Virus record (IMG/VR): IMGVR_UViG_3300045391_005020
Strand: one strand, 5' to 3'
From: a virus
Lineage: Duplodnaviria; Caudoviricetes
DNA length: 64,000 bases
A model generated the notes under the pieces. It saw nothing but the letters and a program-made list of their open reading frames with translations, did no database searches and had not been told where the DNA came from. Below are positions 112-46,097 of this stretch, one piece after another; positions within the stretch are counted from its first letter, which is position 1, and every line of letters starts with the position of its first letter. The position numbers and the translations under genes were made by a program.

Positions 112-2016
112 TTAGGGCGTCCCGGGCGGCTTCTTTCCGTAGTGGCCGGTTTGAGCCAGGCTGTCGCCGAAGTTGACGCCGCGGGCCAGCGCCGGCACGA
201 ACGAGGTGCTGTTGGGGTCGGATTCGGCGCCACGCGCGACCGACTTCTGGAACGCACTGGTGGTGTAGAAGCCGGCCAGCTGGGTCTGCCAATCCGGATC
301 CTCGTGGACGCCCAGTAGGCCGCGCTGCATGTGCGGAGCAAACCCCGGTGCTTCCTCGTGGGTGTGGACGTCCTTGATTCCGTAGCGATGCAAGTGGTCC
401 GCGATCTTGCGGGTCACGCGAGTCCCGACCGTGTAATGGAGCGCTGGCTCTTCCAGGTAGCGCCCGATGGCCTGCTTTGGTGGCGCCAACGTCGCAGTTG
501 GGCGCGGCTTATACGCATGGGTGAGCTGGTTATGCGACACGACGTCGTCAACCACGTGGTCGCCGATTCCTTCGTGGTCGGTGACCTTCGCCCAATTCAT
601 GAGTCCGGCCACGACTGCTTCCAGGTTGCGCCGGTGCGTCGAAATACCGGAGTTGTCCAAGGCCTCCTTGAGGAGGTTGGTGTAGACCCGGCGGGCCTCG
701 CCGAGGCCGCGATGGTGCACGAGATCGATCGGGTGCGGGACGCCGTCCGTCAGGTCGTCGCCTTCGTCGACCGTGTCGCCCGGTTTGACCGTCGGGTTCA
801 GGCCGTCGTGCACGTACAGCTTGTGGTCACCAAGCTCGATGTAGTGGCCGCCCTGCGGGGCCTTCTCGACCGACTTGATCTGACCGGCCTGCGGGGCCAG
901 CGGGCCAGCTTCCGGGAATGACTCAGGAGCCTGAATGAGTCGGTTCAGGTATTCGAATCCGTTGCGGTTGATTTTCTCGGTACCGGTCACACCCGAGGTG
1001 TGCTTGGAATTGAGCATGCCCTGGCTGAGCTTCTCGCCGATCGACTGCGCCGCTGCGATCCCGATGTTGTCACCAATCTTGGAGAGGCCGAAGCGGTCGC
1101 GCCGACCGGCAGCGAAGCGGGAGATCCCGCCGTCCGGCGTCGATTCTGTCAGGGGCGAGTGGATCAGGATTTCGTCGACGCCTTTGCTGTCGAGGTCCTT
1201 GAGCATGTGTGAAGTGAGCGTCGTTCCGGCCGCGAGGACTTTGTCCGTGCCAGGAATCGTGATCGGCGCGGCCAAGACGGCGCCGGCGTTGTCACGGTCT
1301 TTCGGGTGCACCGGAAGCCCGACAGGAAGGCGAGTAGCGTCTGGAGCGTCCTTGGTGACGACGAGTCTGTGCGCCGCGTTGACGAGCTGCTTATTTAGAA
1401 ATCCCGCGTCGCCGACAGCGAACTTCGTGCCGATCATACCGCGACGCTGACCGTACAGACCCGCGAAATATTCGACCGGATCCAGGCCTTGCGCGTAACT
1501 ACGCCAAATCGGGACCGGGATGACTTTGCCGGTGTGGTCGCTGGTCAAGAGATCCGCGCCGCGTAGCGAGTTGTAGTCCGACTTCTTGCCGCGGGCTCCG
1601 CTGATGAGCTGCAAGTAGAATGGATTGTTTTCCTGCTTGGCCTCTTCGAACAACGCGTTCTGGAGATCCTGGCCGAGCGGCAGCAGGGTATTCACCACTG
1701 CGTCGTCTTTCTTGTCGGCCGGAATCCGATCGTCGTCGACGATCTGCTGAATCTTCTGCTTCGCCGCCGCGAGCAGCTTTTCCTTCGCGGGCGAAGTCCG
1801 GAGCGACTTCAGGTCCACCGATGTGCCTTCGTCCCACGCGCTCGAGCGCCCAATGTCGTTGAGCTTCTTCAGCACGTCCTTGTAGCGGTCCGGGTAGCGT
1901 TCTGCTACCTCGCGCATCAGCTCCTGCACACCCTTCGAATCAAGAACACGATCTTCGTTCCGGAGATCTTCCGGAAGCGCGTCGTTGAGCAGGAGTCGGC
2001 CAACGCTGGTATCCAT
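112..2016 (-). CDS. Phage RNA polymerase beta' C-terminal subunit (bridge helix/trigger loop half)
   Basis: GQRRGMIGTKFAVGDAGFLNKQLVNAAH resembles the RpoC bridge helix and AAQSIGEKLSQGMLNSKH the trigger loop. Likely start is MDTSVGRLLL at 2016 (ORF track extends to 2079). Confidence 0.9.
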   Translation of the reverse strand: MDTSVGRLLLNDALPEDLRNEDRVLDSKGVQELMREVAERYPDRYKDVLKKLNDIGRSSAWDEGTSVDLKSLRTSPAKEKLLAAAKQKIQQIVDDDRIPADKKDDAVVNTLLPLGQDLQNALFEEAKQENNPFYLQLISGARGKKSDYNSLRGADLLTSDHTGKVIPVPIWRSYAQGLDPVEYFAGLYGQRRGMIGTKFAVGDAGFLNKQLVNAAHRLVVTKDAPDATRLPVGLPVHPKDRDNAGAVLAAPITIPGTDKVLAAGTTLTSHMLKDLDSKGVDEILIHSPLTESTPDGGISRFAAGRRDRFGLSKIGDNIGIAAAQSIGEKLSQGMLNSKHTSGVTGTEKINRNGFEYLNRLIQAPESFPEAGPLAPQAGQIKSVEKAPQGGHYIELGDHKLYVHDGLNPTVKPGDTVDEGDDLTDGVPHPIDLVHHRGLGEARRVYTNLLKEALDNSGISTHRRNLEAVVAGLMNWAKVTDHEGIGDHVVDDVVSHNQLTHAYKPRPTATLAPPKQAIGRYLEEPALHYTVGTRVTRKIADHLHRYGIKDVHTHEEAPGFAPHMQRGLLGVHEDPDWQTQLAGFYTTSAFQKSVARGAESDPNSTSFVPALARGVNFGDSLAQTGHYGKKPPGTP

Positions 2017-2024
2017 CGCGGCCC

Positions 2025-2234
2025 TTACTGTTTGTTGATGATCTGAACCTGCGCGGCCGTGATTCCGAGCTCGCGGCACTGTTGCGCGAAATCTGGCTGA
2101 GCGGCATCGCTCGCAACGATCATCCGTTCATGCTCGTACGCGAGCGCGGCCGGAGTTCCGGCCTCGGTATAGACCACGACTTGGCTGACCGGGATCGTGT
2201 ACGCCCGGCCGTCTTTCACGAACCGGATGAACAT
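2025..2234 (-). CDS. Small hypothetical protein (69 aa)
   Basis: Compact ORF tightly packed between neighbouring genes in the RNAP operon. Confidence 0.6.
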   Translation of the reverse strand: MFIRFVKDGRAYTIPVSQVVVYTEAGTPAALAYEHERMIVASDAAQPDFAQQCRELGITAAQVQIINKQ

Positions 2235-2864
2235 TTACTCGCCTTTGAGAATGCGATTCAGAACTTCGGCAGCGGCGCCGAGTTTCAGTGGACCGCCTTG
2301 CGCGATCGCTGACATGTCGCCGGGCTGGCCCGAGACGGGGCCGGGCATCGAGGCCGGATCAACCGGCGCAGCCGCGGCTGCGCCGCCAGCGCCTGCCGGC
2401 GGCTGGTTCTTCTTGTTCTTTCCGACAGCGGTGAGGGTGCGTTCCACGATATCCATCACGACGCGAGCTTGACCGTGGTTCACGGCGGCGTTCGGGTCGA
2501 TCGGAGCTTCCGGCTCCGGAGCCGGCTGAGCCGCCTGAGCGGCAGCAGTGGGATCGATCGGTGCACCAGTCGAGGGGTCGATCGGGGCGCCTGCGGCCGG
2601 ATCGCTCGGGGCACCGGCGGACGGATCGGCCGGAGCCGCAGCGGCTGCGGGATCCGCCGGAGCTGCGCCGGCAGCGGCCGGATCACCAGCGAGTTGAGCC
2701 ATCGCGTCCATCGGGGCACCGCCGGCAGCAGCCGGATCTGCCGGAGCCGAGGGAGCGCCAGCCTGAGCGGGGCCGCCAACCGGCATACCGTCCGGACCAG
2801 CTTGCTGCTGATCGGGTTGGGCGGGGATGAAGGCGCGCTTGAGGAGACGTTCGTTGAAGCTCAT
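2235..2864 (-). CDS. Pro/Ala-rich low-complexity protein, possible virion protein
   Basis: 209 aa with repeated DPAA motifs. Sits between the two RNAP genes behind a promoter-like AT-rich gap. Confidence 0.65.
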   Translation of the reverse strand: MSFNERLLKRAFIPAQPDQQQAGPDGMPVGGPAQAGAPSAPADPAAAGGAPMDAMAQLAGDPAAAGAAPADPAAAAAPADPSAGAPSDPAAGAPIDPSTGAPIDPTAAAQAAQPAPEPEAPIDPNAAVNHGQARVVMDIVERTLTAVGKNKKNQPPAGAGGAAAAAPVDPASMPGPVSGQPGDMSAIAQGGPLKLGAAAEVLNRILKGE

Positions 2865-2906
2865 AACTCGTGATCTTAGACCGTAACAATAGACCTACAA
2901 GGTAGG

Positions 2907-5900
2907 TTACGGGTGTAAAATTTTGACTGGGTCGCGGACCGAGATCTCGCCGCGTTTGTAGGCCTTGAGGACATCTTCCTTGGTCGCGAACACCCTGGTC
3001 TGCCGGGCTTTGTCGGGCTGGCTAGCCAGGTACAGGCCGGCCAAGTATTCCTGGCTCGGCAACAGGTGGACGTCGAACGAGGCCGGGTGCAGCAAGTTCT
3101 TGGAGGGCAACAGCTTCTCTTTCGCCTCGTCGACGGCCTTGTCGGAAACCGGGAGGTGGACGTTGATGGCGTCGCCGTCGAAGTCGGCGTTCATGCCCTT
3201 CGTGACCGACTGCGAGATCGAGATGCTGGAGTCCTTATTGATCCGGGCGTGGCCGGCGACGTAGTTGAAACGGTGGAGCGACGGCGCGCGGTTGTAGATA
3301 ACCGGTCGGACCTTCATTTCGGCGTCCAGGTGGTGCTTCGCCGCGGGGGTGCGATCCCGAACGGCCTTCACGGCTTCGGCGGCCGGCGTGCCTTCACGAA
3401 CCAAGCGGCGGATCACGAACGGCCGGAACATCCGCCACGCCATATCTTCTGGGATCCCGACCTGGTCCATGTCGAGCTCGGGATCGATCGTGATGACCGA
3501 GCGACCAATGGTGTCGACCGAGTTACCCAGCACCTTGCGCTGGAACCGACTGTACTTGGGCGAATCCTTGACCCCGATCGCGAACCGGAGCATGCCGCGC
3601 ACGCCCTGTTCGGCCGTCTTGGGATTCACCGGATCCGTGAGGCCAGCGACCGCTTTGGCGGCGTTGTACATGGTCAGGTATTCGTCGCCGTTCTCGCCGA
3701 GTTCTTCACCGGCGCCCTGATAGTTCTTGGCTGACTCCATCAGGTCTTTGTAGAGGTAGTTGGCGTCGTGGATCATGTCGACCCCGCGGGCACGCATAAT
3801 CGGGCGATGCTTCGGAGGCAGGACCGCCATCTTGGAGATCATCAGGTCTTCCGGTTTTACCCCTTGGGTCTTGAGTCCCTGGAGGTACCCGAGACGCCGG
3901 ACCGCGTCATCGCGGTTTGACCGCGATGCAGTTCGGACCTGTTGCTTTGCGAGCTCGATCTCACGATCGACGTTGATGGTCTTGAGCGCGTCCTCGATCG
4001 CTTGCGGGCCCGACTTGCCATTGATCTGTTCTTTGCCAGCCAGGATCTGCTCGAACTTCTTGCCGGTGAGTCCGAGGATGCGCGTGATCGGCTCCTCAGC
4101 CATTGGGTTTGGGATCTTGGCTGGCAGCACGATCTTGCTGAAGCGTGTGCCTTCGGCGCCTCCGGTTTTTCCGAGATCGAACAGACCGCCTTCGACCGGC
4201 TTCATGGTGTTGAAGTCGAACGTGTCGGGCTTCGAGATCTCGTGTTGGGCCAGACGATCCACGTCGGCGTCGGTCATGAAGCCGAGCTGCTGACGACCGT
4301 CCGGCTTGTCCTTGATGTTGACGCCGGCCGAGCGGAGGAGATCGAGGAAGTGACCGTTGGCGAACGATTTACCCTGCTGGGCCGGTGTCTGACCTGTTTT
4401 GAGCTGGCGCCAGAAATCGTCGTTACGCTGACCGCGAACCAGTTTCGCATCCTTGAGGAACTCGGTGGCACCGGCGCTCAGAAGGGAGTGGATGTCGAGG
4501 AGCCCAATTCGCTTCGAACCGTCGGGGCCGCCGCGCGCCGGCGACTCGTCTGCCGAATAGCCGCCTGTGTCGCGTGCCGACATTTTCGACTCAGCAGTAT
4601 GGTGGAGCTTCAGGATGTACTGGTTGCCCGTGAAGACGTTCGGGATCCGGCGGCCGTTCCGCGGATCACGCAACGTTTCCGTCTCTTTGACGCCGTGTTT
4701 GTGGGCTTCATTCAGGGCGAAGTCCGCGAGCCCTTCGGGAGTCGAGAAGGACTTCAGGTTGTAGGGTTGTCCGCGCTTCTCGGCTATCTTGCCGAGCAAA
4801 GTGGTGACCAGGCTGGACGGATTAACGCGCGTGATAATACCAGTCGGGGCCATCAGGACGTCCATCGGGCGACCGTCCTCGTCGTGCGGCATCTGATCGT
4901 CCGGGATGATCTTCGAGACCACGCCCTTGTTACCGTACTGTCCGGAGAGCTTGGATCCGACCGACATTGGCTCGTACGATTTGACCGTGACCTTTACGCC
5001 TGAACGGGTACGGGCCACATCGGTCACCACGCCTGGCTGCGGGTGATCCCACACTTGGCTGATGTCCGTGTAGAGCGACTTCGGCCCGTTGGTGAGCGCG
5101 CCTTGTGCGCGGCCCTGACGTTTCCCGATCGCGACCATGACCGGATCGCCTGGATTTATAGTCTGACCGACTTGGACGGTGCCGCTTTCGTCGAGCTTGT
5201 CGTATTGAGCCTTCGAGAACCGATCGCCGTAGATCGCGCGGTAGTCGTTGGTCTTGGTCGAGTGGACTTCATCGCCGAGATCGAGCGAGTGCTTGTACTG
5301 ATGTTCGCTCGACAGCTTCTTCGCGGCCGATTCAGAGATAGCGACCGAGTCGTCGTAGGTCAGACCTTCGCCAGCCAGGTAAGCAACACGGAGATTTCGG
5401 CCAGGTGCCGCATGACCATTTCGATCAGTGAAGTTCGAGTGAGCCAGCAGCTGACCCGGCTGCACCACGTCGCCAGCCTGGACGACCGGTGTGTTGTGGA
5501 GCATGGTTTTGCGCGCGAGCGGGTAGTGGTTGTAGAGCTCATAATGCTTCTGCTGACCGCCCTCATGGAGGACGTCGATTCCATCCGGTGTCACCTTCAC
5601 GACGCGGCCCGGCGCTTCCGAGTGCACCGCGCCGGCGTGGCTGCCCATCTGCTGGTAGAACGATTTGCCTTCGTGGTCGAGCGGATGGACGAGCGGCGCC
5701 TCCGCATCTTTGAGAGGAAGCGCCTGAGTGGTCATACGCGCACCCATTAGGAGACGCTGTGATTTCACGCCTTCGAGGAGGGGGACCATGTTGGACGCGC
5801 GGCTAAACAGGTGGGTCGCATCCGGGAGTTCGTACTTCACCTTCGAGCGGTCGATGTACTGGATCTTGTGCCCGACCATCGCACGAACTTTGCGTTCGCC

Positions 5901-7313
5901 CTTTGCGAGCTCGCCCGGGAAAGCGATCGCGTGGTTCGCCATCTGGCGCGCCGACAGCGTCTCGAGTTTACCGGTCGCGGGATCGCGGAGCGTTGTGTAC
6001 AGCTGACCGTCTGAGCCCTTGAGGGCCGCGTCGGTAACGCGCATGTCGAGGCCGATGTTCGATGACTCCGGGGCGCGCACGCCATCGATGATGCCGAAGT
6101 AACTCGGCTGCACGCCTCGCGCGTCACGCGAGACAGATTGGGTGGAGCTGATTCCGCCCTCGCCCAGGCGCGTGATTGCCTGACGCTGATCGTAGGTCTC
6201 GAACGGGTTGATGTCTTCGACCGCCGAACTGAGTCCGGTGCGGTACAGTGCGTGTACATTCGGGGTCAGGATGCCGGAACGGAGCTTGTCGAGCTTGCCC
6301 GATTTCGCCGCACCCCAAAGGAGCTTGCGCATCTCGCCAGCCTGGTCGCGCTCGAGACGTTCACGGATCAGATCCTCGGCCGAGTGGACCGACTGGAACG
6401 CTTGCGAGTCGCGGTTGTCGCCCTCTTCCTGGTTGTTCGCGACGCGCAGAATTTTCTGCGTCGCCTTCGTGAGCGCGTCGAGTCCTGGGCGATCGTGCTG
6501 ACCGCCGAGCGTGAGCTCACTGACTTCCGGATCGATGCGGGCGCGGTCCAGAATGGTCTGCAGGGCTTTCGGGAGTTCGTGATCGGGAGCTTCGCGCTCA
6601 GCTTGGCGGCCGAGCTTCTGGACAACCTTGCGGAGATCCTGCTGATCGTGACCGCTGACTTCGCGCCAGTTCTGTTTGAACAGCTGTTCGCCCCAAGCCT
6701 GCTTGAGATCTTCGTCTTTGACCCCCAGCGCTTTCAGGAGTGGATACAGACGCGTCTTTGACTGTTCGACCTGGAGGTTGAACACACCAGTTTCGGGATC
6801 CAGGTTGACGCGGAATCCGCGACCAGTGCCGGGCTTCACGTTCACGTGCGCCTCGACGCCGCCATTCTGCTGACGCCGCACGTACACGCCCGGACGCAAC
6901 CGGGCCTGATTCCTGATCGAATAAGGAACACCGTTGTGAATGAAGAGACCGCGCGAGTTCAGGTGCGGCACGTGGGCCAGCACCGCGTTCTGTTCATCCA
7001 GGACCTGGTTGGTCTTGTTGTCGACGAGTCGGATCCGTCCCTTGATCGCGCGCTGGAGACGGCCGCCTTCCAGGAGAGCTTTCTTTTCGTCAGCACGAGT
7101 CGGATTGTAGTCGCCGTCGTAGTCGGCATTCACCAGTTCGATCCGGTGCGTGTCGTTCTGGATCGGAAAACGTGTTCGAACGCCCTCGAGGGCGTTGTCG
7201 TAGATGGCTTGGCGCTGGCCAGCGACGTCGTCAAAGCGACGAAGCGTGACGGGCTTAGGCGGCGTTACCGGCTTAGGCGCGGCGCCGGATAGGGCATCAA
7301 GAAAGTCGGCCAT
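2907..7313 (-). CDS. Phage RNA polymerase, fused beta + N-terminal beta' (catalytic) subunit
   Basis: RpoB motifs GSKLSGQYGNKGVVSKI and LKLHHTAESKMSAR. RpoC motifs follow: KPVEGGLFD, VLPPKHRP, LGNSVDTIGRSVI, NRAPSLHR and the catalytic NADFDGD. Confidence 0.95.
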   Translation of the reverse strand: MADFLDALSGAAPKPVTPPKPVTLRRFDDVAGQRQAIYDNALEGVRTRFPIQNDTHRIELVNADYDGDYNPTRADEKKALLEGGRLQRAIKGRIRLVDNKTNQVLDEQNAVLAHVPHLNSRGLFIHNGVPYSIRNQARLRPGVYVRRQQNGGVEAHVNVKPGTGRGFRVNLDPETGVFNLQVEQSKTRLYPLLKALGVKDEDLKQAWGEQLFKQNWREVSGHDQQDLRKVVQKLGRQAEREAPDHELPKALQTILDRARIDPEVSELTLGGQHDRPGLDALTKATQKILRVANNQEEGDNRDSQAFQSVHSAEDLIRERLERDQAGEMRKLLWGAAKSGKLDKLRSGILTPNVHALYRTGLSSAVEDINPFETYDQRQAITRLGEGGISSTQSVSRDARGVQPSYFGIIDGVRAPESSNIGLDMRVTDAALKGSDGQLYTTLRDPATGKLETLSARQMANHAIAFPGELAKGERKVRAMVGHKIQYIDRSKVKYELPDATHLFSRASNMVPLLEGVKSQRLLMGARMTTQALPLKDAEAPLVHPLDHEGKSFYQQMGSHAGAVHSEAPGRVVKVTPDGIDVLHEGGQQKHYELYNHYPLARKTMLHNTPVVQAGDVVQPGQLLAHSNFTDRNGHAAPGRNLRVAYLAGEGLTYDDSVAISESAAKKLSSEHQYKHSLDLGDEVHSTKTNDYRAIYGDRFSKAQYDKLDESGTVQVGQTINPGDPVMVAIGKRQGRAQGALTNGPKSLYTDISQVWDHPQPGVVTDVARTRSGVKVTVKSYEPMSVGSKLSGQYGNKGVVSKIIPDDQMPHDEDGRPMDVLMAPTGIITRVNPSSLVTTLLGKIAEKRGQPYNLKSFSTPEGLADFALNEAHKHGVKETETLRDPRNGRRIPNVFTGNQYILKLHHTAESKMSARDTGGYSADESPARGGPDGSKRIGLLDIHSLLSAGATEFLKDAKLVRGQRNDDFWRQLKTGQTPAQQGKSFANGHFLDLLRSAGVNIKDKPDGRQQLGFMTDADVDRLAQHEISKPDTFDFNTMKPVEGGLFDLGKTGGAEGTRFSKIVLPAKIPNPMAEEPITRILGLTGKKFEQILAGKEQINGKSGPQAIEDALKTINVDREIELAKQQVRTASRSNRDDAVRRLGYLQGLKTQGVKPEDLMISKMAVLPPKHRPIMRARGVDMIHDANYLYKDLMESAKNYQGAGEELGENGDEYLTMYNAAKAVAGLTDPVNPKTAEQGVRGMLRFAIGVKDSPKYSRFQRKVLGNSVDTIGRSVITIDPELDMDQVGIPEDMAWRMFRPFVIRRLVREGTPAAEAVKAVRDRTPAAKHHLDAEMKVRPVIYNRAPSLHRFNYVAGHARINKDSSISISQSVTKGMNADFDGDAINVHLPVSDKAVDEAKEKLLPSKNLLHPASFDVHLLPSQEYLAGLYLASQPDKARQTRVFATKEDVLKAYKRGEISVRDPVKILHP

Positions 7314-12775: not shown

Positions 12776-14623
12776 CTATTGGGCAGGAGGCGCTCCGCCA
12801 GCTGGCGGCGACGCCAGCATTTGCTGCTGACCCTGTGAGGCGGCCTGACCCCGGAGTTTTTCCATTTTGGAGGTGACCAGGGCATGCAGGTCCGGGCTCG
12901 ACTCGCGGATCGCTTTAAGCTGCTGCTTGCGATCGTATTCGGGCATCGAGACCAACTGACCCGCGATCTGGTCAGCCTGCTCGGACATACCGCGCAGGGT
13001 CGCGTCGCCCTGTCCGCCACCTGAGCCTGGGAGTCCGCCCATTCCGCCAGCCATGCCGGCGGCCTGGCCTCCGGCAGCTCCACCACCCTGGGCCGCTTGG
13101 GCCATCTGGGACGGGGTTGGGGCGCCGGCGAGAGCGCTGACCGCGCCCATTTCCTGGTCCTTCTGCTGCTGCTCTTCGTGCTCGCGTTGGACCTTCTGGA
13201 CGTGGTCCTGGTGCTTGAAGACCTTCTCGACTTCCTTCTCGGCGTCGACGCCGAAGGGTTCGAGGGCCGTCTGGGGAGAAATCTGGTTGGCAGCCATGAG
13301 CTGAGCCAGGACCTGCTTGCGAGCTTCGTCGTACGCGATCGTGGTGCGCTGCATCACGACGTTGGTTTCTTCGAGCCCGAAGTTGCGGGCCGTGACCTTG
13401 ACGATCCAGGCCAGGATCTGGTTGTAGAGAGCCGGGATCGACTGCCACGCGATCTCGAAGAGCTGCAACGCCATCGGGGCGGCCTGGGTGGTCAGCGACA
13501 TCGAGTGGTACTCGAGCGGGATACCGCATTGGTTCAGGAACTCTTGCTGACGGAACTTCAGCTTGTCGGCCGGCAGTAGGTTCTCGCCTTCGCCGCCCGC
13601 GAACTGGTAGTTCAGCGGATACGGAACTGTATGGATCGTGGTCGGATCCGAGCGGTGCGTCTTGATGATCTCGTTGACGCGACCGACGAAATTCTCCATC
13701 GAGTGCGTGATCATCGGATCACCGCCGCCGGGCGTTTGGGCCGGCGACAACATGCGCATGCCCAGCGTGTAATCCATCGCGATCGCCTGATCGGCGCGGT
13801 TGATGATCTGGGACAACCATGCGGCGCGGAAATTCGCGATCGAACGCGGAATACCCCAACCGCGCGTCTCCATGCCGGAGATGACGGTTTCGTCGAGATG
13901 GAAGATGTGCTCTTCGTCGAATTTCAGATCACCGTTGAGCGCGACCGCTTCCAGAATCTTGAGTGGAGTATCTTCGATGAAGATCGGGGCTTTCGACAGG
14001 ATGTCGCGGCGATCCGTCTGCGGGATCTTCCAGTAGATGTCCTTGCGCTGGCTGAACGGGTTCATCGCCAGCTGGACACTGAACGGGCTGTAGCGTTTCA
14101 ACCGGACCTTCGAGATATCCGGATCCTTGCGGTCCTTACACAGGAACGGACGAGAGTCGCCGCAGTGCGGGCAGTTGCGCCGGCGCTTCCACGTAACGCC
14201 TATGGTGGCGTCAAAGTCGATATCGTAGGGGGCGCGATTGATCGGCTCTTCGAAGCCGCAACCGCGACACACCATGGTGCGCTTGAACGGCAGGTAGAGG
14301 CTGACGAACAGATTGCCGTAGCACAGAAAATCATCAGCGCAGGCCTTGAGCTCGCGCCGGTAGTTCAGGTGCTTGAGGAACAGATCCTCGTAAGCGTTCT
14401 CTTCGTCGGTGTCGAGATCCGGAAACTGGACCGTGGTGATGAAATGATCGGCAACGCGCTGGAAGGCAGCCTTGAAGTTACCGTCGCTGAGCCACAGGTA
14501 CTGGGCCCACCAGAGAATCAGTTCGTGGTTATCCGGGACCGCGGTCGAACCATAGTCGAGCCACGGGAGCTCGACTGGCTTGCTCCCGGGGGAACGGACC
14601 AGGGACGGCGCTAACGTCGACAT
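12776..14623 (-). CDS. Probable portal protein with inserted Zn ribbon
   Basis: 615 aa with portal-like GWGIP...AIAMDY segment, CRGC...CPHC pair and Q/G-rich tail. Lies in the structural gene block. Confidence 0.55.
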   Translation of the reverse strand: MSTLAPSLVRSPGSKPVELPWLDYGSTAVPDNHELILWWAQYLWLSDGNFKAAFQRVADHFITTVQFPDLDTDEENAYEDLFLKHLNYRRELKACADDFLCYGNLFVSLYLPFKRTMVCRGCGFEEPINRAPYDIDFDATIGVTWKRRRNCPHCGDSRPFLCKDRKDPDISKVRLKRYSPFSVQLAMNPFSQRKDIYWKIPQTDRRDILSKAPIFIEDTPLKILEAVALNGDLKFDEEHIFHLDETVISGMETRGWGIPRSIANFRAAWLSQIINRADQAIAMDYTLGMRMLSPAQTPGGGDPMITHSMENFVGRVNEIIKTHRSDPTTIHTVPYPLNYQFAGGEGENLLPADKLKFRQQEFLNQCGIPLEYHSMSLTTQAAPMALQLFEIAWQSIPALYNQILAWIVKVTARNFGLEETNVVMQRTTIAYDEARKQVLAQLMAANQISPQTALEPFGVDAEKEVEKVFKHQDHVQKVQREHEEQQQKDQEMGAVSALAGAPTPSQMAQAAQGGGAAGGQAAGMAGGMGGLPGSGGGQGDATLRGMSEQADQIAGQLVSMPEYDRKQQLKAIRESSPDLHALVTSKMEKLRGQAASQGQQQMLASPPAGGAPPAQ

Positions 14624-39479: not shown

Positions 39480-39550
39480 TGGCACAGCCCCCAGGTATTG
39501 CACCTGGCCCGCCGGATTTGGAGTTCGGCGCCTCCCTTGGAGAAGGCCAT
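39480..39550 (-). tRNA. tRNA-Trp(CCA), atypical reduced D-arm
   Basis: CTCCAAA loop, T-arm CCAGG/CCTGG and encoded CCA. Weak acceptor stem. Confidence 0.55.
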
Positions 39551-39556
39551 ATGGAA

Positions 39557-39631
39557 TGGTCCGCGCACAGGGAATTGAACCCCGATTCCCTCCTTATCAG
39601 AGAGGTGTCCTGACCGTTGGACGATACGCGA
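39557..39631 (-). tRNA. tRNA-Ile(GAT)
   Basis: CCTCT-CTGATAA-GGAGG anticodon arm, TTCAATT T-loop, CCA. Confidence 0.85.
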
Positions 39632-39638
39632 GTGAAGA

Positions 39639-39713
39639 TGGTGCTCAGCCAGGGAATTGCACCCCAGTCCCACCCATACCAAGGGCGTGTACTGCTGACT
39701 GTACTAGCAGAGC
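39639..39713 (-). tRNA. tRNA-Thr(GGT)
   Basis: CGCCC-TTGGTAT-GGGTG anticodon arm, CCA. Confidence 0.8.
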
Positions 39714-39781
39714 GTGAAACAGCGTCGTAAAGCAAGCGCGTTGCTTCGTGACAATAGACTTGACCAGGACACGATGCGTGC

Positions 39782-40081
39782 GTGATCGATGAAGAATTTG
39801 TAATCGTCGACGGCTCTGTCGAGTCGCCCCTGTTGACCGCTGAGGAGGCTGCGGCCTATCTGCGCTGTCACCCCAAGACGCTTGGTAAGCGTGGGGTGCC
39901 ATATGTCGACCTGGGGCATCGATCACACTTCTACCGGAAAGAGGACCTCGATGCTTGGATCGCGCAGCGGCTCAAGAAGCCGCTCGCATCCGCGCCGGCG
40001 CGCGTGGATGTCCTGGCGCTCGAGCCCGTGCGCGAGTACCTGCCGAAGCGCCGGAAGCGCGCTACGAGTCGAGCTTCCTGA
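39782..40081 (+). CDS. Excisionase-like HTH protein
   Basis: LLTAEEAAAYLRCHPKTL...YRKEDLDAWI, convergent with the integrase. Confidence 0.75.
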   Translation: MIDEEFVIVDGSVESPLLTAEEAAAYLRCHPKTLGKRGVPYVDLGHRSHFYRKEDLDAWIAQRLKKPLASAPARVDVLALEPVREYLPKRRKRATSRAS

Positions 40082-41396
40082 CCACTTCCCTGAACACCGT
40101 GCGCGACGGGTGCGCGTATCGCTCGGTGAGCTTCGTCGAGCTGTGTCCCATGAGTCCCTGGATGTGGTAGATGTCCACGTCCTTCTCGGTCAACCGGGTG
40201 GCGTACGTATGGCGCAGATCGTGGATCCTGAGCGTCGGTTTTCCGAGTTCCTCCCGGACTCGTTCCCACGCCTTGCGGAGCCCGACGGCCGGGCGTGGCC
40301 CGAACCGCTGTTCTTCCGCGGCGAGCCGCATCTTCACTGCTTCTTCGCGGGTCAAGAAAACCCCGAGGTACTTGGGGCGACCGCCGCGGCCACTCCCGAT
40401 CTCGGCGCGGTACCGGATGGCGCCGCCCTTCTGGCGCACCTTGCGGACGCCGAGGATTTGTCCGCCAGGAACCGATCGCTTCGGGAGCCGCGTGTTGCGC
40501 TCGCGATCGAGCCGAGACAGGGTGCCAGCGTGCCACGGAAAGATTGGCTCGGCGGCGCGGGCCTGGGCGACCTGCTTCAACTCCGCGACCGTGGCGACAC
40601 CGGCGCGACGCAGCAGCATGTCGATCGTTCGGTTCCGGAGCGGAACCTCGCGCATCTTATGGTTCTTGGTCACGTACCCCAGCAGACGCACGAACGGCTC
40701 GAGCTTCTCGGTGAACAGGATCGAGCTCCACGTGAGCGCCAAACCTTCACGCCGCCGCGCGCCCGTATCCATCAAGAGCATCGCGTAGTCGCGCAGGTCG
40801 GGCGTTGGCTCGCACAGCGCCAGCAACCGATCCGCTTCGGCCTCGCTCAGGGCCAGGTAGTTCGCAACCCCGACCGGCACCTTTTTGAATTCCGGAACCG
40901 GCATCCCGGCTCCCCAAAACTTGTTCGCGTACCGGCACACCACCGTGACGTTCATGAGCGTGGTGTTCACCGTGTTGGGGGCCAAGCCGGCCGCCAGCAT
41001 GGCGCGTTTGAAATCGCTCAGGCGCTCGGTGGTCACCGCGGTCAGCGGCGTCTTCTCGCCCAGGAACTCGACGATCCGGCCGAACAGAGACGCGCGGGTT
41101 GCCAAGGACTGCTTGTAGGGTCGATCGTGGTAGCAGGGGGCCACCACCTCGACCAGGTAGTCGTCGAACGCTTTCTTGACCGTCAGAGCCGAGCGCTCCG
41201 GCGGTGCCACGGTCACGGCCATGATCGGCACATGCTGGGCCTGGTCGCGCGCCGCCTTCCGGAGATTCACCTTCCACTCGTCCTCGAACTCGCGCGCGTC
41301 GTTCTTGGTCGGGAAGCCGCGCCGCGTGAAGCGTTGGTTCTTAAACTCGAACTGGACGTAGTAGGAATCGGTGCGTTTGTCGAAGCAGGCAGACAT
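40062..41396 (-). CDS. int: Tyrosine integrase with N-terminal arm-binding domain and an inserted AP2-like domain
   Basis: TGARRRE, HDLRHTYAT and LMGHSSTKLTERYAH catalytic motifs. Insertion GVRKVRQ..YRAEI..KYLGVFLTREEA. Confidence 0.92.
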   Translation of the reverse strand: MSACFDKRTDSYYVQFEFKNQRFTRRGFPTKNDAREFEDEWKVNLRKAARDQAQHVPIMAVTVAPPERSALTVKKAFDDYLVEVVAPCYHDRPYKQSLATRASLFGRIVEFLGEKTPLTAVTTERLSDFKRAMLAAGLAPNTVNTTLMNVTVVCRYANKFWGAGMPVPEFKKVPVGVANYLALSEAEADRLLALCEPTPDLRDYAMLLMDTGARRREGLALTWSSILFTEKLEPFVRLLGYVTKNHKMREVPLRNRTIDMLLRRAGVATVAELKQVAQARAAEPIFPWHAGTLSRLDRERNTRLPKRSVPGGQILGVRKVRQKGGAIRYRAEIGSGRGGRPKYLGVFLTREEAVKMRLAAEEQRFGPRPAVGLRKAWERVREELGKPTLRIHDLRHTYATRLTEKDVDIYHIQGLMGHSSTKLTERYAHPSRTVFREVVRKLDS

Positions 41397-41437
41397 GCTA
41401 TTTCTCCCATTGGTGTCACTACGGACTCACAGCACTT

Positions 41438-41765
41438 GGTCACCTGCAAGCCACCGTACCCCCTTTGGGTGCAATTCAAAATAGCGACTGATTGGTTTCG
41501 TTCGATGGTGTCATACACTCGGTATTTACCGATATTCTGTGCATTCCGTGCAGGCGATCCGATCATCGTAACAATAGATTTTAACCAGTGTTAAAACCCA
41601 TCTTTCGTAATTCAGATAGCCACGGTTCGATTAAATTCCCCAACCGCAGCCATTTGCACGACTTGTACCTAACAAAACCGTCTAGCTACTACTCCCGTTC
41701 GAAATCATAAAGGTAGTAAAAGGAGCGATGCGGACTCGCCGGTCACCTGCAAAGTCACCTGCAAA
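41438..41765. repeat. attP-like region with three direct GTCACCTGCAA repeats (putative arm sites)
   Basis: Copies near 41439, 41742 and 41754 in an AT-rich gap next to int. Confidence 0.6.
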
Positions 41766-41793
41766 CTACTGGGTTTATGGATGAAAAACGAAG

Positions 41794-41865
41794 TGCCCAA
41801 GAGAGGGATCGCACCTCCGACCTTTCGCTTACGAAGCGACTGCTCTACTGCTGAGCTACTCGGGC
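41794..41865 (-). tRNA. tRNA-Thr(CGT), no encoded CCA
   Basis: GTCGC-TTCGTAA-GCGAA anticodon arm in a canonical cloverleaf. Confidence 0.85.
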
Positions 41866-41912
41866 GCATGGGCCGCATCGTGCTCAAACGACGCCACGCG
41901 TCTAGGGGTGAC

Positions 41913-41987
41913 TGGTGCCCACGGCCACGAATCGCACGAGCGTCTCCTGAGTACAAAACAGGTGTCCTGCTACTGGACGACGCGGGC
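41913..41987 (-). tRNA. tRNA-Thr(TGT)
   Basis: CCTGT-TTTGTAC-TCAGG, CCA. Bulged T-stem. Confidence 0.7.
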
Positions 41988-41993
41988 ATTGAA

Positions 41994-42069
41994 TGGACTA
42001 CGCGATCGGTGCTGCCCCGACTTGGTCCTGCTTGGAAGGCAGGCGATCTGCTAGATGACCCACGCGTAG
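41994..42069 (-). tRNA. tRNA-Gly(TCC)
   Basis: CCTGC-CTTCCAA-GCAGG with U73. T-loop GGCAGCA. Confidence 0.8.
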
Positions 42070-42076
42070 GTGAAAG

Positions 42077-42334
42077 TTAGATTGGTTCGCCGTGCAGCTG
42101 AATCAGCGCATGGCATCGATGGGTGAGTTCGAAGCACGCCATCGCGGTCTGGTTGGCGACCTCATGGGGAACGTAGAGACGACCCCGTTCGGGATCGAAG
42201 TGCGCGCCGCGCAGCCACGGCATCTCGGTTAGGATCGGAACACCGATCGCCATCAGCTCGTCGTAGGTGAGCCAGTACCGGTACGGCCAGCTCAGAGTGG
42301 CGGGTGCTTCAGGTGTCTCTTGGCCGTCGGGCAT
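42077..42334 (-). CDS. Hypothetical protein
   Basis: 85 aa ORF in a tRNA spacer. Confidence 0.45.
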   Translation of the reverse strand: MPDGQETPEAPATLSWPYRYWLTYDELMAIGVPILTEMPWLRGAHFDPERGRLYVPHEVANQTAMACFELTHRCHALIQLHGEPI

Positions 42335-42531
42335 GAGATCTGGAATCCGATCGGAGCCGGACGGTTCAGGATGTCGTCGTGGCGGGCTTCGTCTTCTTCG
42401 CGGGCGCAGCGAGCGGCCCGGATCTCGTTGATCAGGAACATGATGGCGGCTCCTACCAGGAAACCGGCCGCGAATCCGACGGAGAGTATGATTGGCACAC
42501 CCGGATCATAACGAGTCAAGTCTATTGTCAA

Positions 42532-42606
42532 TGGTGCTGGCCCAGGGAATTGAACCCCGGTCTGAGCGGTACGAAGGCCCTGTTCTGCTAACTAAACTAG
42601 GCCAGC
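42532..42606 (-). tRNA. tRNA-Thr(CGT), second copy
   Basis: GCTGGCC/GGCCAGC acceptor stem, TTCGTAC loop, CCA. Confidence 0.7.
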
Positions 42607-42660
42607 ATGGCGAGACAATAGATTTGACTGACAGTGTAATATTACATACAGTCGGCCGGT

Positions 42661-43431
42661 ATGCGTACCGCCCTCCTGCTGTTACTATTCGGAACTCTGT
42701 CGGCCGCGGTCCCGGGAATCCCTGAGCCGCCGGCGCCGGGCCCGATCCCGGAAGTGACGCTCGGGTGGTTCAACGACTGGCACGCGATCCCGACCACGCA
42801 CTCGGATGATCACCGGACCAACGCGTTCATCGTGGGGATCCGGATCGACGACTGGGTCTACCAAGTCGACGACTCGATGCTCACGTCGCGCGAGCTCGGG
42901 GTCAGGAACGACGAACTCTCGCTGACCGCAGGCTACATCATCGCGAACGACGAGTCGGCCTCGATCGTCCTCGGCGGCGGGGTTCGGCTCCGCGGAGACT
43001 ATGGCGGCGAGTCCACCCAGAACTGGTGGCATTCGCAGTGGCGCGATTACCCGGTCCACCTTGCGTACGAAGACTCGGTTCCGAGCCCGATTCTCTACAT
43101 GATGAATCACCTGCGGACGTTTCCGCTCAACGATCATTCGCTCGAGATCATCGCGGACGGTGAAGTCCTGTCGGACGCGCTCGCCGTCGATCTCGGGCTG
43201 CGCGACGTCGTGTTCCTGAATGACGCCGGTGACATCCGTATCTGGTTCGGCCCGCGCTGGCAGTTCCGCGAAGATTGGCAGGACAATCAGATCGGTCCCG
43301 AGATCGCTCGATTCGAACGAGGTCTCTGGATCGACTACGGGATCCAGATCGGTCACTTCAGCCTCGGAGAACGCCATGCGATCGGGCGCTCCGAAGGCAT
43401 GGGCACGATCAGCTGGAGCTGTGGATTCTAA
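42661..43431 (+). CDS. Outer-membrane beta-barrel, lipid A deacylase LpxR-like
   Basis: Signal peptide, ND...DD.RTNA motif, QNWWH, amphipathic strands and terminal Phe. TTGACT-17-TACAGT promoter upstream. Confidence 0.55.
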   Translation: MRTALLLLLFGTLSAAVPGIPEPPAPGPIPEVTLGWFNDWHAIPTTHSDDHRTNAFIVGIRIDDWVYQVDDSMLTSRELGVRNDELSLTAGYIIANDESASIVLGGGVRLRGDYGGESTQNWWHSQWRDYPVHLAYEDSVPSPILYMMNHLRTFPLNDHSLEIIADGEVLSDALAVDLGLRDVVFLNDAGDIRIWFGPRWQFREDWQDNQIGPEIARFERGLWIDYGIQIGHFSLGERHAIGRSEGMGTISWSCGF

Positions 43432-43601
43432 TGACCAAAGTACCTCTTTCGCCCTGGACGCGCCTCACGAGTCGCTCCGAACTGGAGTCTGACGCGCGCT
43501 ACTTCAAGCTGCTCGACGAAAACGGCCGGAAGCATCTGACCGCAGAAACAAAGAAGCGCATCGACGCACTCCGGATGATGTACGGCGACGACGCCTGATG
43601 A

Positions 43602-43679
43602 TGGTCGGCGCCGTGGGAGTCGAACCCACCTGTGACCGCTTATAAGACGGCTTGCGACTGAACCGGTCGCGTGACGCCA
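43602..43679 (-). tRNA. tRNA-Ile(TAT)
   Basis: GCCGT-CTTATAA-GCGGT anticodon arm, TTCGACT T-loop, CCA. Confidence 0.75.
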
Positions 43680-43682
43680 CTG

Positions 43683-44468
43683 TTATGGTTCAGGGGCCCA
43701 GGTGACCGAGCTGAACTCGATGTGCCTGGTAGAGTCTGGATTCCAGACGTCGAACACTTTGACGCCGGTTCCTTCGTCCATCGGGATATAGGCGTCCGCG
43801 GCGCTCACGTTGGTGAGCGGGCTTGGCGGGTTCGACTGATACGTTACCGCATAGAAGTTTCGCATGTAACCGTTGATTCCCGGGTTGTCGTAGCCGACGC
43901 GCATCCCGAGGAGACCAGCGCCCGTCGTGATGTTCGCCCCGACTGTTCCAGAGACCACTGAGACTCCGTTGAGAAACACAGCCGTTACGCGAGACGTGTT
44001 GACGGTGATCCTGATTGTGTTCCACGCACCGAAGTTGAATAGACCGGGAGCTGAGCTGTTCTGGAAGGCTCCGCCCGCCCATTGTGCTTGCCAGCGCAAC
44101 GATCCGTCACCCATCACCCGTAACTCATACCCGTAATTTGAGACGTTCCACGGTGCCCCGAAAGAGAACAAGCCAGCGGATCCAGAGGCGTGATTGACTT
44201 CGAACTCCCACGTGCGGGCCTGGAGACCGCCGGCCGCGATGTGCCACATCGTGTTTCCGCGCCCGTAGAACGCCTGGTTGGTGCTGCCGAGGCTCTGGAG
44301 GTTGGTGTCGAACGGCCGATCGTAAATCGTTTCCGGCATGCGCCCGCCCTGGACGGCTTCAACATGCGAGAGAGCCTCGGTCTTCCGGAACCTGTCTTGC
44401 TCGATCTGGTTCTGCTGGCCAGCTGGAGTTCGACTCTTACCGTTGTCGGTTACGCGGAATTTAGGCAT
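43683..44468 (-). CDS. Concanavalin A/LamG-like lectin domain protein
   Basis: Beta-sandwich pattern WNTIRITV..VFLNG..INGYMRNF and YIPMDEGTG..VFD. Confidence 0.6.
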   Translation of the reverse strand: MPKFRVTDNGKSRTPAGQQNQIEQDRFRKTEALSHVEAVQGGRMPETIYDRPFDTNLQSLGSTNQAFYGRGNTMWHIAAGGLQARTWEFEVNHASGSAGLFSFGAPWNVSNYGYELRVMGDGSLRWQAQWAGGAFQNSSAPGLFNFGAWNTIRITVNTSRVTAVFLNGVSVVSGTVGANITTGAGLLGMRVGYDNPGINGYMRNFYAVTYQSNPPSPLTNVSAADAYIPMDEGTGVKVFDVWNPDSTRHIEFSSVTWAPEP

Positions 44469-44506
44469 ACCACAGAGTTTATGGTTGCCATGTCGGCATA
44501 CTAGGG

Positions 44507-44582
44507 TGGCGTCGCGGGGTGGGCTCGAACCACCAGCCTCCAGCTTCGGAGGCTGGTGCTCGTCCGATCGAGCTGCCGCGAC
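44507..44582 (-). tRNA. tRNA-Arg(CCG)
   Basis: CCAGC-CTCCGAA-GCTGG, CCA. Confidence 0.85.
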
Positions 44583-44586
44583 AAAA

Positions 44587-44661
44587 TGGAACGCATGCTG
44601 GGAATCGCACCCAGATCCTCTCGCTGGCAGCGAGACGTCTTAGCTGTTAGACGACACACGC
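44587..44661 (-). tRNA. tRNA-Gly(GCC)
   Basis: TCTCG-CTGCCAG-CGAGA, U73, CCA. Confidence 0.8.
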
Positions 44662-44667
44662 GTGAAA

Positions 44668-45096
44668 CTAAAGAAGCGGAAGCTGTCCCGTCACGGGATC
44701 GATCTCGTGGTCCCAGTGTGGACCGATCGCCAGACACGTCTTGGTCGGAACCCCGTTGAACTCGGTGAGGCCGCGGTCTTCGATCAGATGACACCGTAGC
44801 CCACGAGCCTTCGCGGCCAGCTCGATGTCGAGCAAGGCCTGCTCGGACTCAACGTAGCAGCAGATCTTCCGGAAGTTGCCGAAGTACCAGGCTTGCTCGG
44901 CCGGATCCAGGAAGATCCCGTCGAGCTCGATTTTGACGTCGTTGTCCTTCAGGCCTGGACGGCTCTCGCGCGGCCCGAACACTTTGAGCATCAGGGCTGC
45001 GATGCTGGCATGAGATCCCTGAGCGATCATCTTACCCTTGCGCATATTGAGGTCCTTGCGGACCACGATCACTTGCTTAACCGAGTTGACTGACAT
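44668..45096 (-). CDS. pth2: Peptidyl-tRNA hydrolase, Pth2 family
   Basis: KQVIVVRKDLNMRKGKMIAQGSHA and DRGLTE..TCLAIGP. Confidence 0.92.
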   Translation of the reverse strand: MSVNSVKQVIVVRKDLNMRKGKMIAQGSHASIAALMLKVFGPRESRPGLKDNDVKIELDGIFLDPAEQAWYFGNFRKICCYVESEQALLDIELAAKARGLRCHLIEDRGLTEFNGVPTKTCLAIGPHWDHEIDPVTGQLPLL

Positions 45097-45135
45097 GGCA
45101 GCACTGTACAGAGTCCTTGTTGGGTTGGAAGGAAA

Positions 45136-45212
45136 TGGTCCGCCGCGTAGGACGTGCGCCTACATCCCCCGGTTAAGAGCCGGGTGCATCTGTCTGTTTA
45201 TGCTTGCAGCGA
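45136..45212 (-). tRNA. tRNA-Lys(CTT)
   Basis: CCCGG-CTCTTAA-CCGGG, CCA. Atypical T-loop CGCACGT. Confidence 0.8.
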
Positions 45213-45218
45213 ATGAAG

Positions 45219-45293
45219 TGGTTGACCACCACGGGGTCGATCCGTGTTCCCTCGGTTAAAAGCCGAGTGCATCAGCCCTAATGCTTGTGATCT
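45219..45293 (-). tRNA. tRNA-Lys(TTT)
   Basis: CTCGG-CTTTTAA-CCGAG, CCA. Confidence 0.8.
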
Positions 45294-45299
45294 GTGAAA

Positions 45300-45373
45300 T
45301 GGAGGCGCGAGGAGGAATCAAACCTCCGTGGACAGGGTTGCAATCTGCCGCCTGGTCACTCGGCCATCGCGTC
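45300..45373 (-). tRNA. tRNA-Cys(GCA)
   Basis: TTGCAAC loop, U73, CCA. Confidence 0.85.
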
Positions 45374-45470
45374 TTGAAAAGTAAAGGGTGCCCGTTCTTC
45401 CTATTGGTAGAAGAACGGGACTTGTTGGTGTCACGCGTGATGACACCACGGGTACGGTCGTCCGGCCCAG

Positions 45471-45758
45471 TCAGGCGACTTCTGGAGTTCGCTGCTCCGG
45501 GAGACCGAGGAACGCATTGCGCATGTTCTCGATGCGCGACTCTGGCGACCGGTGCGCCGTCGGCTTACCGCGGATCACAAGCGAGAGGTCGTGAAGGGTG
45601 CTGATCAGGAGCGCGTTGTAGTGCGCCTGAGACTGCGCGACGCGAGCTGCGTTGCTCACGTGTGGCTCGTGCGTGACCGCCTTGAAGGCGACCTGCATGG
45701 CAACGAGCTTCTTGAGCTCGCACCGTATTTTGTAGACGTCGTCGGAGATCTGGGACAT
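45471..45758 (-). CDS. Hypothetical helical protein downstream of the Pth2-like gene
   Basis: 95 aa with RBS aaagg, directly following the Pth2-like gene. Confidence 0.55.
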   Translation of the reverse strand: MSQISDDVYKIRCELKKLVAMQVAFKAVTHEPHVSNAARVAQSQAHYNALLISTLHDLSLVIRGKPTAHRSPESRIENMRNAFLGLPEQRTPEVA

Positions 45759-45761
45759 TGG

Positions 45762-46097
45762 TTACCTTTCAGGATTCCAGAGTTTGTGGTGACGAAACAG
45801 TTTCCTGGCCTCGCCCGAGATGGGCGCGGTCGCGAGCGCGGTAGCGGCGTTGCCGATATCGGGCTCTCGGAAGAGAGTGAGAGGAATGCCGGCCCCGGTG
45901 AGCCGCTCAGCTTCCTGGAGAAGCTCGAGCTCAGACGGGACACCGATCACGATCAGGTGGCTGATCTGGTCGGTCTGGTACGGGTGGAGGAGTGCGACCT
46001 CGTGGGTCGCGTGGGCAGCCTGAACAAGCTGCTGGGCCAATGGCAGGTCTAGCCTGACAAGGCAGTAGACGTAGCCGGGTAGCTAGGCGTTCTTCAT
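45762..46097 (-). CDS. Pth2-like protein interrupted by in-frame TAG at codon 5 (readthrough candidate)
   Basis: ATG AAG AAC GCC TAG CTA CCC GGC TAC GTC TAC... reads MKNA*LPGYVYCLVRLDLPLAQQLVQAAHA...FREPDIGNAATALAT. Confidence 0.75.

What the first reader, a model, noticed from the sequence alone, without database searches (positions are those of the whole stretch)
112..7313. Phage multisubunit RNAP with a re-drawn subunit boundary (beta-beta'N fusion + beta'C) and both Zn sites lost
Seen: one 1468-aa ORF runs from a shortened beta directly into beta' as far as NADFDGD and SQEYLAGLY. The rest of beta' starts at TSVGR in a separate gene, with two small ORFs in between. The clamp Zn-binding region is reduced to GLFDLGKTGGAEGTRF. 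The second Zn site reads SPLTESTPDGGISRFAAG, with no Cys. Established: both catalytic barrels are therefore in one chain. The split lies near the cyanobacterial rpoC1/rpoC2 break, and phiKZ-type RNAPs are split differently and are far more diverged. Inference: a distinct bacterial-derived phage RNAP lineage, possibly virion-packaged given its neighbours.
Basis: partly seen in the sequence, partly recalled or inferred. Interest (0 to 1): 0.75.

Follow-up and report, generated by a model that had tools for sequence, protein, structure and literature searches.

The report
Re-cut phage RNA polymerase with sigma
A large uncultured phage encodes a cell-type RNA polymerase whose two big subunits are joined into one chain and cut at a different place; a cultured relative's particles contain the same two pieces and a sigma-like factor, so the enzyme probably starts phage transcription without the host's polymerase.

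Summary
Real, not an artefact. ORF 2907-7313 is beta (E. coli 25-1340) joined to beta' ~17-552; beta' 570-1359 is a separate 634-aa gene starting at 2016. Catalytic residues are intact and neither chain has a cysteine. The layout recurs in 77 of 80 related viral loci and in cultured Salmonella phage Arash and three Vibrio phages; independent sequencing runs bridge both boundaries. The sister group encodes the whole enzyme as one ~2,000-aa chain with the same junction and the same deletion of the clamp zinc domain, so fusion probably came first and the cut second. The second zinc site was lost later, only in some split members. The post-barrel cut is not unique (cyanobacteria, phiKZ/AR9, RP13); the fusion is. 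The clade lies outside sampled bacteria; its exact origin is unresolved. No alpha N-terminal domain was found in 27 genomes; a sigma-like gene was found in 28 of 29. The Arash orthologues of both chains and of the sigma are in its virion proteome. Best reading: an alpha-less, virion-packaged polymerase with its own sigma; activity is untested. I found no paper describing the family. This scan has already noted the single-chain form on other DNA many times.

The parts
4305..7313 (-). beta-like part of the 1468-aa chain (residues 1-1003), with D655, K788, K796, R829, H905 = E. coli D814, K1065, K1073, R1106, H1237
   Evidence: fold matches bacterial beta
4290..4310 (-). fusion junction: last beta strand, short turn, first beta' strand, modelled as two adjacent strands
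   Evidence: AlphaFold2 model pLDDT 87, pTM 0.79; bridged by an independent contig
2907..4304 (-). beta' N-terminal part of the same chain (E. coli beta' ~17-552): clamp, lid, clamp helices, rudder, catalytic barrel; ends at a hairpin turn
4140..4187 (-). remnant of the clamp zinc-binding domain (about 32 residues with all four Cys deleted)
   Evidence: 79 of 79 split members; single-chain relatives
3720..3767 (-). first clamp helix (sigma-binding surface), acidic where bacteria are basic
3171..3191 (-). catalytic NADFDGD motif (residues 1375-1381)
   Evidence: three Asp invariant in 79 of 79
2235..2864 (-). 209-aa Pro/Ala/Gly-rich ORF, positionally conserved; no known family; more like a head-associated protein than a polymerase subunit (inference)
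2025..2234 (-). 69-aa conserved ORF (five strands, one helix), no known fold or family; candidate accessory protein, role open
112..2016 (-). beta' C-terminal gene, 634 aa (E. coli beta' 570-1359): funnel, bridge helix, trigger loop, jaw, C-terminal clamp
1105..1158 (-). Cys-free second zinc site (residues 287-304; the fourth ligand position is P225 at 1342-1344)
1000..1023 (-). trigger loop, Q332 and H339 (E. coli Q929, H936) invariant; F935 replaced by an invariant Lys
12776..14623 (-). portal-protein homologue (context: the polymerase genes lie in the head module)
   Evidence: BLASTP to Arash gp204, E 3e-56

Best explanation
The two long genes encode the complete catalytic core of a phage two-barrel RNA polymerase. 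One chain carries beta plus the beta' clamp and catalytic barrel; the other supplies bridge helix, trigger loop and jaw. They re-join by re-forming a beta-hairpin that is a simple turn in single-chain relatives. SHOWN: domain layout, intact catalytic residues, family-wide conservation, purifying pattern of strain differences, no alpha N-terminal domain, a single-copy sigma-like core gene in the baseplate module, and presence of all three Arash orthologues in a virion proteome. INFERRED: the covalent beta-beta' link replaces the alpha dimer as assembly platform. The core and the sigma-like protein are packed into the particle, injected, and transcribe early genes independently of the host enzyme and of rifampicin. 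An acidic clamp helix paired with a basic sigma region 2.2 keeps host sigmas off. History (inferred by parsimony): fusion and loss of the clamp zinc domain in a single-chain ancestor, then fission at beta' ~552/570, then loss of the second zinc site in some split members.
For: Catalytic residues invariant or nearly so in 79 long chains and 89 short chains. Same layout in 77 of 80 IMG/VR loci and in Arash, D69, D148, D181. Over 100 clusters of single-chain relatives share the junction and the zinc-domain deletion; split and single-chain forms make one clade, 100/1. Outgroups mostly have an intact beta'. No alpha match beyond the C-terminal domain in 27 genomes. Sigma-like orthologue in 28 of 29 genomes, homologous to Arash gp10 (E 4e-14). 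Arash virion proteome: gp206 3516 spectra, gp216 1210, gp10 467 (PMC10585845); divided by length (1525, 606, 234 aa) these give 2.3, 2.0 and 2.0 per residue, roughly equimolar (my arithmetic). The second Arash sigma, gp196, is not in the listed rows. One beta barrel gene per genome in Arash and D69, one beta' barrel gene here. Sigma position equivalent to sigma70 E407 is Arg/Lys in 24 of 27 and beta' R271 is Asp/Glu in 27 of 27. Rifampicin pocket altered, I572 to Asp in 79 of 79.
Against: No activity has been measured for any member. The Arash proteome lists 116 proteins including ribonucleotide reductases and ligases, and its authors allow that abundant enzymes co-purify. Arash is only 32% and 24% identical to this phage's chains, so packaging here is transferred by homology. 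The charge swap arose once in related genomes, so 27 genomes are not 27 independent tests; Arash and D69 do not show it. The flap tip that docks sigma region 4 is shortened although the sigma-like protein keeps a region 4. This genome is 74% complete, so absences rest on relatives. One versus two fissions is unresolved (AU p 0.25).
Confidence: 0.72

Rival explanations
1. The enzyme is a non-virion polymerase made during infection for middle or late genes; early genes use the host polymerase, and the Arash signal is carry-over.
For: The Arash preparation holds many metabolic enzymes. Arash has a second, RpoS-like sigma. Only one polymerase per genome, so it need not be the early one.
Against: The genes sit among portal and head genes here, in Arash and in single-chain relatives. 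gp206 has the most spectra in the particle, and the three parts are roughly equimolar. The sigma-like gene lies in the baseplate module.
Confidence: 0.13
2. The phage chains are not self-sufficient and borrow host alpha/omega or a host sigma; the sigma-like protein serves the host polymerase or has become a structural part.
For: The beta' segment that touches alpha in bacteria (about 527-550, own knowledge) is kept at the end of the long chain. Phage sigmas commonly redirect the host core (PMC7598289).
Against: The bacterial basic clamp helix is invariant in 10 bacteria and not kept in any of 30 phage sequences. phiKZ/AR9 cores work without alpha (PMC7598289). The sigma-like gene co-occurs with the polymerase in 28 of 29 genomes.
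Confidence: 0.1
3. The order of events was the reverse: beta' was already cut (as in phiKZ, RP13, cyanobacteria), beta fused to the front half, and the single-chain forms re-joined later.
For: The region is a recurrent cut site in phage polymerases. Split and single-chain groups are sisters, so neither is nested in the other with strong support.
Against: Needs three events instead of two. Bacteria, mReC-size enzymes, Carin-5, TM30, Va2 and 1.031.O have an intact beta', and RP13/IME392 branch among them. Single-chain forms keep the more cell-like trigger loop and second zinc site; one of them (L272) branches basally in the beta' tree.
Confidence: 0.15
4. Assembly or frameshift artefact of an ordinary rpoBC pair.
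For: None found.
Against: 840 nt with two conserved ORFs separate the genes; 77 loci and four cultured phages share the layout; independent contigs bridge both boundaries.
Confidence: 0.01

Closest known systems
Salmonella phage Arash gp206 + gp216 + gp10 (OQ632216; PMC10585845) and Vibrio phages D69, D148, D181
   Same: Same fusion, same cut, same clamp zinc deletion, same head-module position, homologous sigma-like gene in the baseplate module; 30-32% identity over 97% of the long chain.
   Different: Annotated simply as beta and beta' (or hypothetical); in the passages read the paper does not note the re-drawn boundary. They keep the second zinc site, have no detectable 69-aa ORF homologue, have Lys for beta H1237, and lack the sigma/clamp charge swap.
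Uncultured single-chain beta-beta' phage polymerases (~2,000 aa; L170, L212-L214, L260, L261, L266, L272, P0241-P0360)
   Same: Same junction, same zinc-domain deletion, next to the same portal gene; sister clade.
   Different: One chain; second zinc site kept in 74 of 74; trigger loop cell-like. No paper found; noted repeatedly by this scan.
mReC phage polymerases (Weinheimer and Aylward 2020, PMC7481178)
   Same: Phage-encoded, alignable to cellular beta and beta', branching outside sampled bacteria; phage enzymes group together 99.6/1 in my tree.
   Different: The listed mReC have separate beta and beta' of 800 aa or more; mReC-size enzymes mostly keep the clamp zinc Cys and form their own clade; their capsid matches PF07068, this one does not.
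phiKZ/AR9 virion and non-virion polymerases (PMC7598289, PMC7824862)
   Same: No alpha or omega; beta' cut after the barrel; one form is virion-packaged.
   Different: Beta is also split, nothing is fused, two enzymes per genome, no recognisable sigma; far more diverged (22-51 bits to a bacterial beta' profile for phiKZ-size beta' pieces against about 200 for this family's).
Cyanobacterial/plastid RpoC1 + RpoC2
   Same: beta' cut in the same region after the barrel.
   Different: Cut about 20-35 residues further on; beta separate; alpha, omega and both zinc sites present (own knowledge).
Natural RpoB-RpoC fusions of Helicobacter and Wolbachia (own knowledge, not tested here)
   Same: beta C-terminus joined to beta' N-terminus.
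   Different: Full-length ordinary bacterial subunits that still use alpha, omega and both zinc sites.
crAss-like phi14:2 gp66 and P23-45 gp96 virion polymerases
   Same: Both barrels in one virion-packaged chain.
   Different: Only weak fold likeness (Z 6.4-7.0 against 29.6 for a bacterial beta); a different lineage.

Membership tests
Two-barrel multisubunit-type RNA polymerase | beta' barrel with DxDGD triad | tested here: met
   three Asp invariant in 79 of 79
Two-barrel multisubunit-type RNA polymerase | beta barrel with two catalytic Lys and conserved Asp/Arg | tested here: met
   K1065, K1073, D814, R1106, R678 equivalents invariant
Two-barrel multisubunit-type RNA polymerase | bridge helix and trigger loop | tested here: met
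   R780, G794, Q929, H936 equivalents invariant in 89 of 89
Two-barrel multisubunit-type RNA polymerase | DNA-dependent RNA synthesis | not testable with these tools
   no assay exists for any member that I could find
Bacterial RNA polymerase core | nests among bacterial RpoB/RpoC | tested here: not met
   bacteria monophyletic 100/1; grouping with Planctomycetota, Proteobacteria or Bacillota rejected, AU p < 1e-17; only 10-12 bacteria sampled, no cyanobacteria
Bacterial RNA polymerase core | alpha subunit gene with assembly domain | tested here: not met
   27 related genomes, only C-terminal-domain matches in 7; a very diverged alpha is not excluded
Bacterial RNA polymerase core | two beta' zinc sites | tested here: not met
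mReC | separate beta and beta' proteins of at least 800 aa | tested here: not met
mReC | falls in the deep phage clade | tested here: inconclusive
   all phage enzymes 99.6/1, but sister-to-Bacteria not rejected (p 0.085); mReC rows identified by size and layout, not by published accession; long branches
mReC | PF07068 major capsid protein | tested here: not met
   no Pfam hit for this capsid; the Arash capsid has a weak PF05065 hit
phiKZ/AR9-type polymerase | beta' cut after the barrel | tested here: met
phiKZ/AR9-type polymerase | beta split into separate chains, two paralogous enzymes, no sigma | tested here: not met
Arash-type beta-beta'N + beta'C polymerase (unnamed) | same junction, same cut, clamp zinc deletion, one clade | tested here: met
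   (split clade 98/1)
Virion-packaged polymerase | present in purified particles | not testable with these tools
   reported for the Arash orthologues only
omega or alpha substitute (69-aa ORF) | fold or sequence likeness to a polymerase subunit | tested here: inconclusive
   confident model, best Z 2.4, no E < 0.001 match

The most novel reading that the evidence does not exclude
A large, undescribed phage group carries a minimal three-part holoenzyme in the particle: a fused, re-cut, alpha-less, entirely zinc-free cell-type core plus its own sigma, made orthogonal to the host's by a charge-swapped sigma-clamp interface. It branched before the sampled bacterial phyla, and a cultured member (Arash) makes the split core and its sigma testable at the bench.
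Probability: 0.35. Interest if true: 0.82.

Novelty: new variant of a known kind. Interest (0 to 1): 0.63.

Why it matters
How cell-type RNA polymerases assemble without alpha, and what the two beta' zinc sites are for, are open questions. This family is a natural series (single chain, cut chain, with or without the second zinc) that stays close enough to bacterial enzymes for residue-by-residue comparison. Unlike phiKZ-type enzymes it seems to keep a recognisable sigma and to carry it in the particle. A cultured member exists, so the main claims can be tested now. A compact, host-independent, probably rifampicin-insensitive polymerase with its own sigma could also serve as an orthogonal transcription tool.

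Tried and rejected
Complex prediction of the 69-aa protein with the beta' halves gave no answer (not evidence either way). The idea that the 69-aa protein replaces the second zinc was rejected: it occurs in members with and without the four Cys. Likeness to Sac7d/Sso7d has the same strand-helix order but feature score 0.78, TM about 0.3 and rmsd 8-9 A: a lead only. No 69-aa homologue rang in three single-chain genomes, without a positive control. No promoter motif was found by a gapped-word search of the genome or the sigma70 scan. Pfam sigma region 2, alpha and omega searches of the own genome were blank; the sigma-like gene was found only through relatives. No RNA holder was listed. A seemingly separate beta'C in L279 is one 2019-aa frame with two TGA, so it is a single-chain form. 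All 16 hits in prokaryote genomes were contigs in metagenome bins of unrelated taxa: no host can be read from them. Independent multiple losses of the second zinc are suggested by the ML tree, but a single loss is not rejected (AU p 0.30). Ten literature searches found no description of the family; subscription journals are mostly not covered. Trees used LG+G only, with fast search and few outgroups, and left out phiKZ-type sequences and 19 near-redundant rows.
Full report
Source. The window lies on a 148,649-bp viral record, about 74% complete; an identical protein is on record on a 215-kb contig. Matching DNA occurs in soil and groundwater metagenomes. The host is unknown. Eleven genes match Salmonella myovirus Arash, among them portal, capsid, two other head-module genes, baseplate-region genes and a sigma-like gene.

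The observation. Profile alignment against bacterial subunits places residues 16-1003 of the long chain on E. coli beta 25-1340 and the rest on beta' ~17-552; the short chain covers beta' 570-1359. Only about 17 residues of beta' are missing at the cut. An AlphaFold2 model of residues 290-1468 is confident (pLDDT 87, pTM 0.79) and shows the last beta strand and first beta' strand side by side across a short turn. Its best fold matches are bacterial and plastid beta, then beta'. All catalytic residues are present and invariant or nearly so across the family. Neither chain has a cysteine.

Not an artefact. The short chain has 313 homologues and the long chain at least 120 that carry both barrels. 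Of 80 viral loci fetched with the short chain, 77 have the long gene within the fetched DNA. Arash and Vibrio phages D69, D148 and D181 have the same layout. Contigs from runs of other studies bridge the junction, the stop of the long gene and the start of the short gene, and strain differences are almost all at third codon positions.

The single-chain sister group. A motif scan of viral contigs turned up single ORFs of about 2,000-2,200 aa that match both chains, and a protein search gave over 100 such clusters. They share the junction and the deletion of the clamp zinc domain, several lie beside the same portal gene, and at the cut site they have a short turn. In the tree, split and single-chain forms are one clade (100/1), split forms are one clade (98/1), and sampled bacteria are a separate clade (100/1). 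Most outgroups have an intact beta', so fusion followed by fission is the shorter history; two fissions are not rejected.

The zinc sites. The clamp site is deleted in all 79 split members and in the single-chain members aligned. The second site keeps its four Cys in 74 of 74 single-chain proteins, in Arash and D69, and in a dozen split relatives. 'Both lost' is therefore true for this phage but is the sum of an old and a later event. Two earlier notes of this scan report Cys-free single-chain members (e1-5362264, e1-5403705); I did not test those.

The cut. It is not special by itself. Cyanobacterial gamma still aligns to E. coli 578, so its break is further on. phiKZ and AR9 enzymes cut beta' after the barrel too (PMC7598289), as do RP13 and IME392. 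What sets this family apart is the beta-beta' fusion with the zinc-domain deletion.

Origin. Grouping with Planctomycetota, Proteobacteria or Bacillota is rejected; sister to all bacteria (p 0.085) or to mReC-size enzymes (p 0.48) is not. The listed mReC have two separate large subunits, so this is a different architecture even if the two share an ancestor. Long branches and thin sampling limit this result.

Partners. No alpha assembly domain was found in 27 related, mostly complete genomes. A sigma-like gene in the baseplate module is present once in 28 of 29 genomes and is homologous to Arash gp10. In this phage's clade the first clamp helix has acidic residues where all ten bacteria are basic (271: 27 of 27; 274: 24 of 27), and the facing sigma position is basic in 24 of 27; Arash, D69 and one single-chain phage keep Glu there (sigma70 numbering and the contact itself from own knowledge). 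This is one evolutionary event and so only a lead. The 69-aa ORF has homologues in 78 of the first 85 loci, nearly always between the two genes and in 54 of 84 cases within 30 nt of the short gene's start. It folds confidently but matches nothing and was not detected in Arash or D69, so it is probably not an obligatory core subunit. The 209-aa ORF is low-complexity and positionally conserved.

How it most likely works. In Arash, gp206 is the protein with most spectra in the particle, and gp216 and gp10 are present at similar spectra per residue (PMC10585845). The authors note possible carry-over, and in the passages I read they do not describe the fusion or cut. I infer a packaged, injected, alpha-less core with its own sigma for early transcription, insensitive to rifampicin because the pocket is remodelled. 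Confidence 0.72; the rivals are a non-virion enzyme (0.13) and dependence on host subunits (0.10).

Novelty. The chemistry and fold are those of known two-barrel polymerases, and the cultured relative's genes are already annotated as polymerase subunits. The architecture, the single-chain sister group and the sigma partner are not described in any paper I could search. This scan has noted the single-chain form on other DNA many times (208 notes hold the search words); I read those notes only after my own analyses, and they agree. Verdict: new variant of a known kind, interest 0.63.

Noticed in passing
G000:C1:128367-129233 (outside the window; L283:12368-13234): 288-aa sigma70-family-like gene (regions 3 and 4 over Pfam cut-off, diverged region 2) inside the baseplate module; orthologue of Arash gp10; single copy in 28 of 29 related genomes.
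   Followed up: yes
G000:C1:87895-93651 (downstream of beta'C, outside the window): Three head-module proteins are enriched in a Lys-x-Ala motif (z 3.6-4.2 against shuffles); possibly maturation cleavage sites. The polymerase chains are not enriched.
   Followed up: partly
L016, L017, L019, L026, L028, L075, L080, L096: beta'C carries a 440-830-residue C-terminal tail, mostly Pro/Ala/Gly-rich, unrelated to anything in this genome.
   Followed up: partly
L001, L002, L005, L017, L075; many of P0017-P0117 and P0124-P0345: Both chains are frequent targets of inteins and homing-endonuclease insertions; in Vibrio D181 and D148 the long gene is interrupted by a homing endonuclease, probably an intron.
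   Followed up: no
G063:C1:83436-89432: Single-chain polymerase in a complete 210-kb phage reads through two TGA codons: probable stop-codon reassignment.
   Followed up: partly
G024, G028, G036, G037, G040, G042, G043: Stand-alone proteins matching only the alpha C-terminal domain, four tandem copies in one 380-aa frame of G040; perhaps modulators of host transcription.
   Followed up: no
alignment of the long chain, residue 1375: The beta' N458 position, which selects ribose in bacteria (own knowledge), is Gly in 44, Asn in 28 and Ala in 6 of 79 members; trigger-loop F935 is Lys in all 89 split members.
   Followed up: no
window about 39550-50680, minus strand (G000:C1:34003-45117): Cluster of 20 tRNA genes; Arash has 21.
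   Followed up: no
G047 (L292, L293): An mReC-size contig with two polymerase pairs (1014+893 and 1379+1010 aa), the second without clamp zinc Cys, like a published mReC contig.
   Followed up: partly
L086, L090, L092: Cultured phages RP13, IME392 and Ab3098 encode beta' in pieces cut between E. coli ~515 and ~566, with no beta detectable by Pfam.
   Followed up: partly
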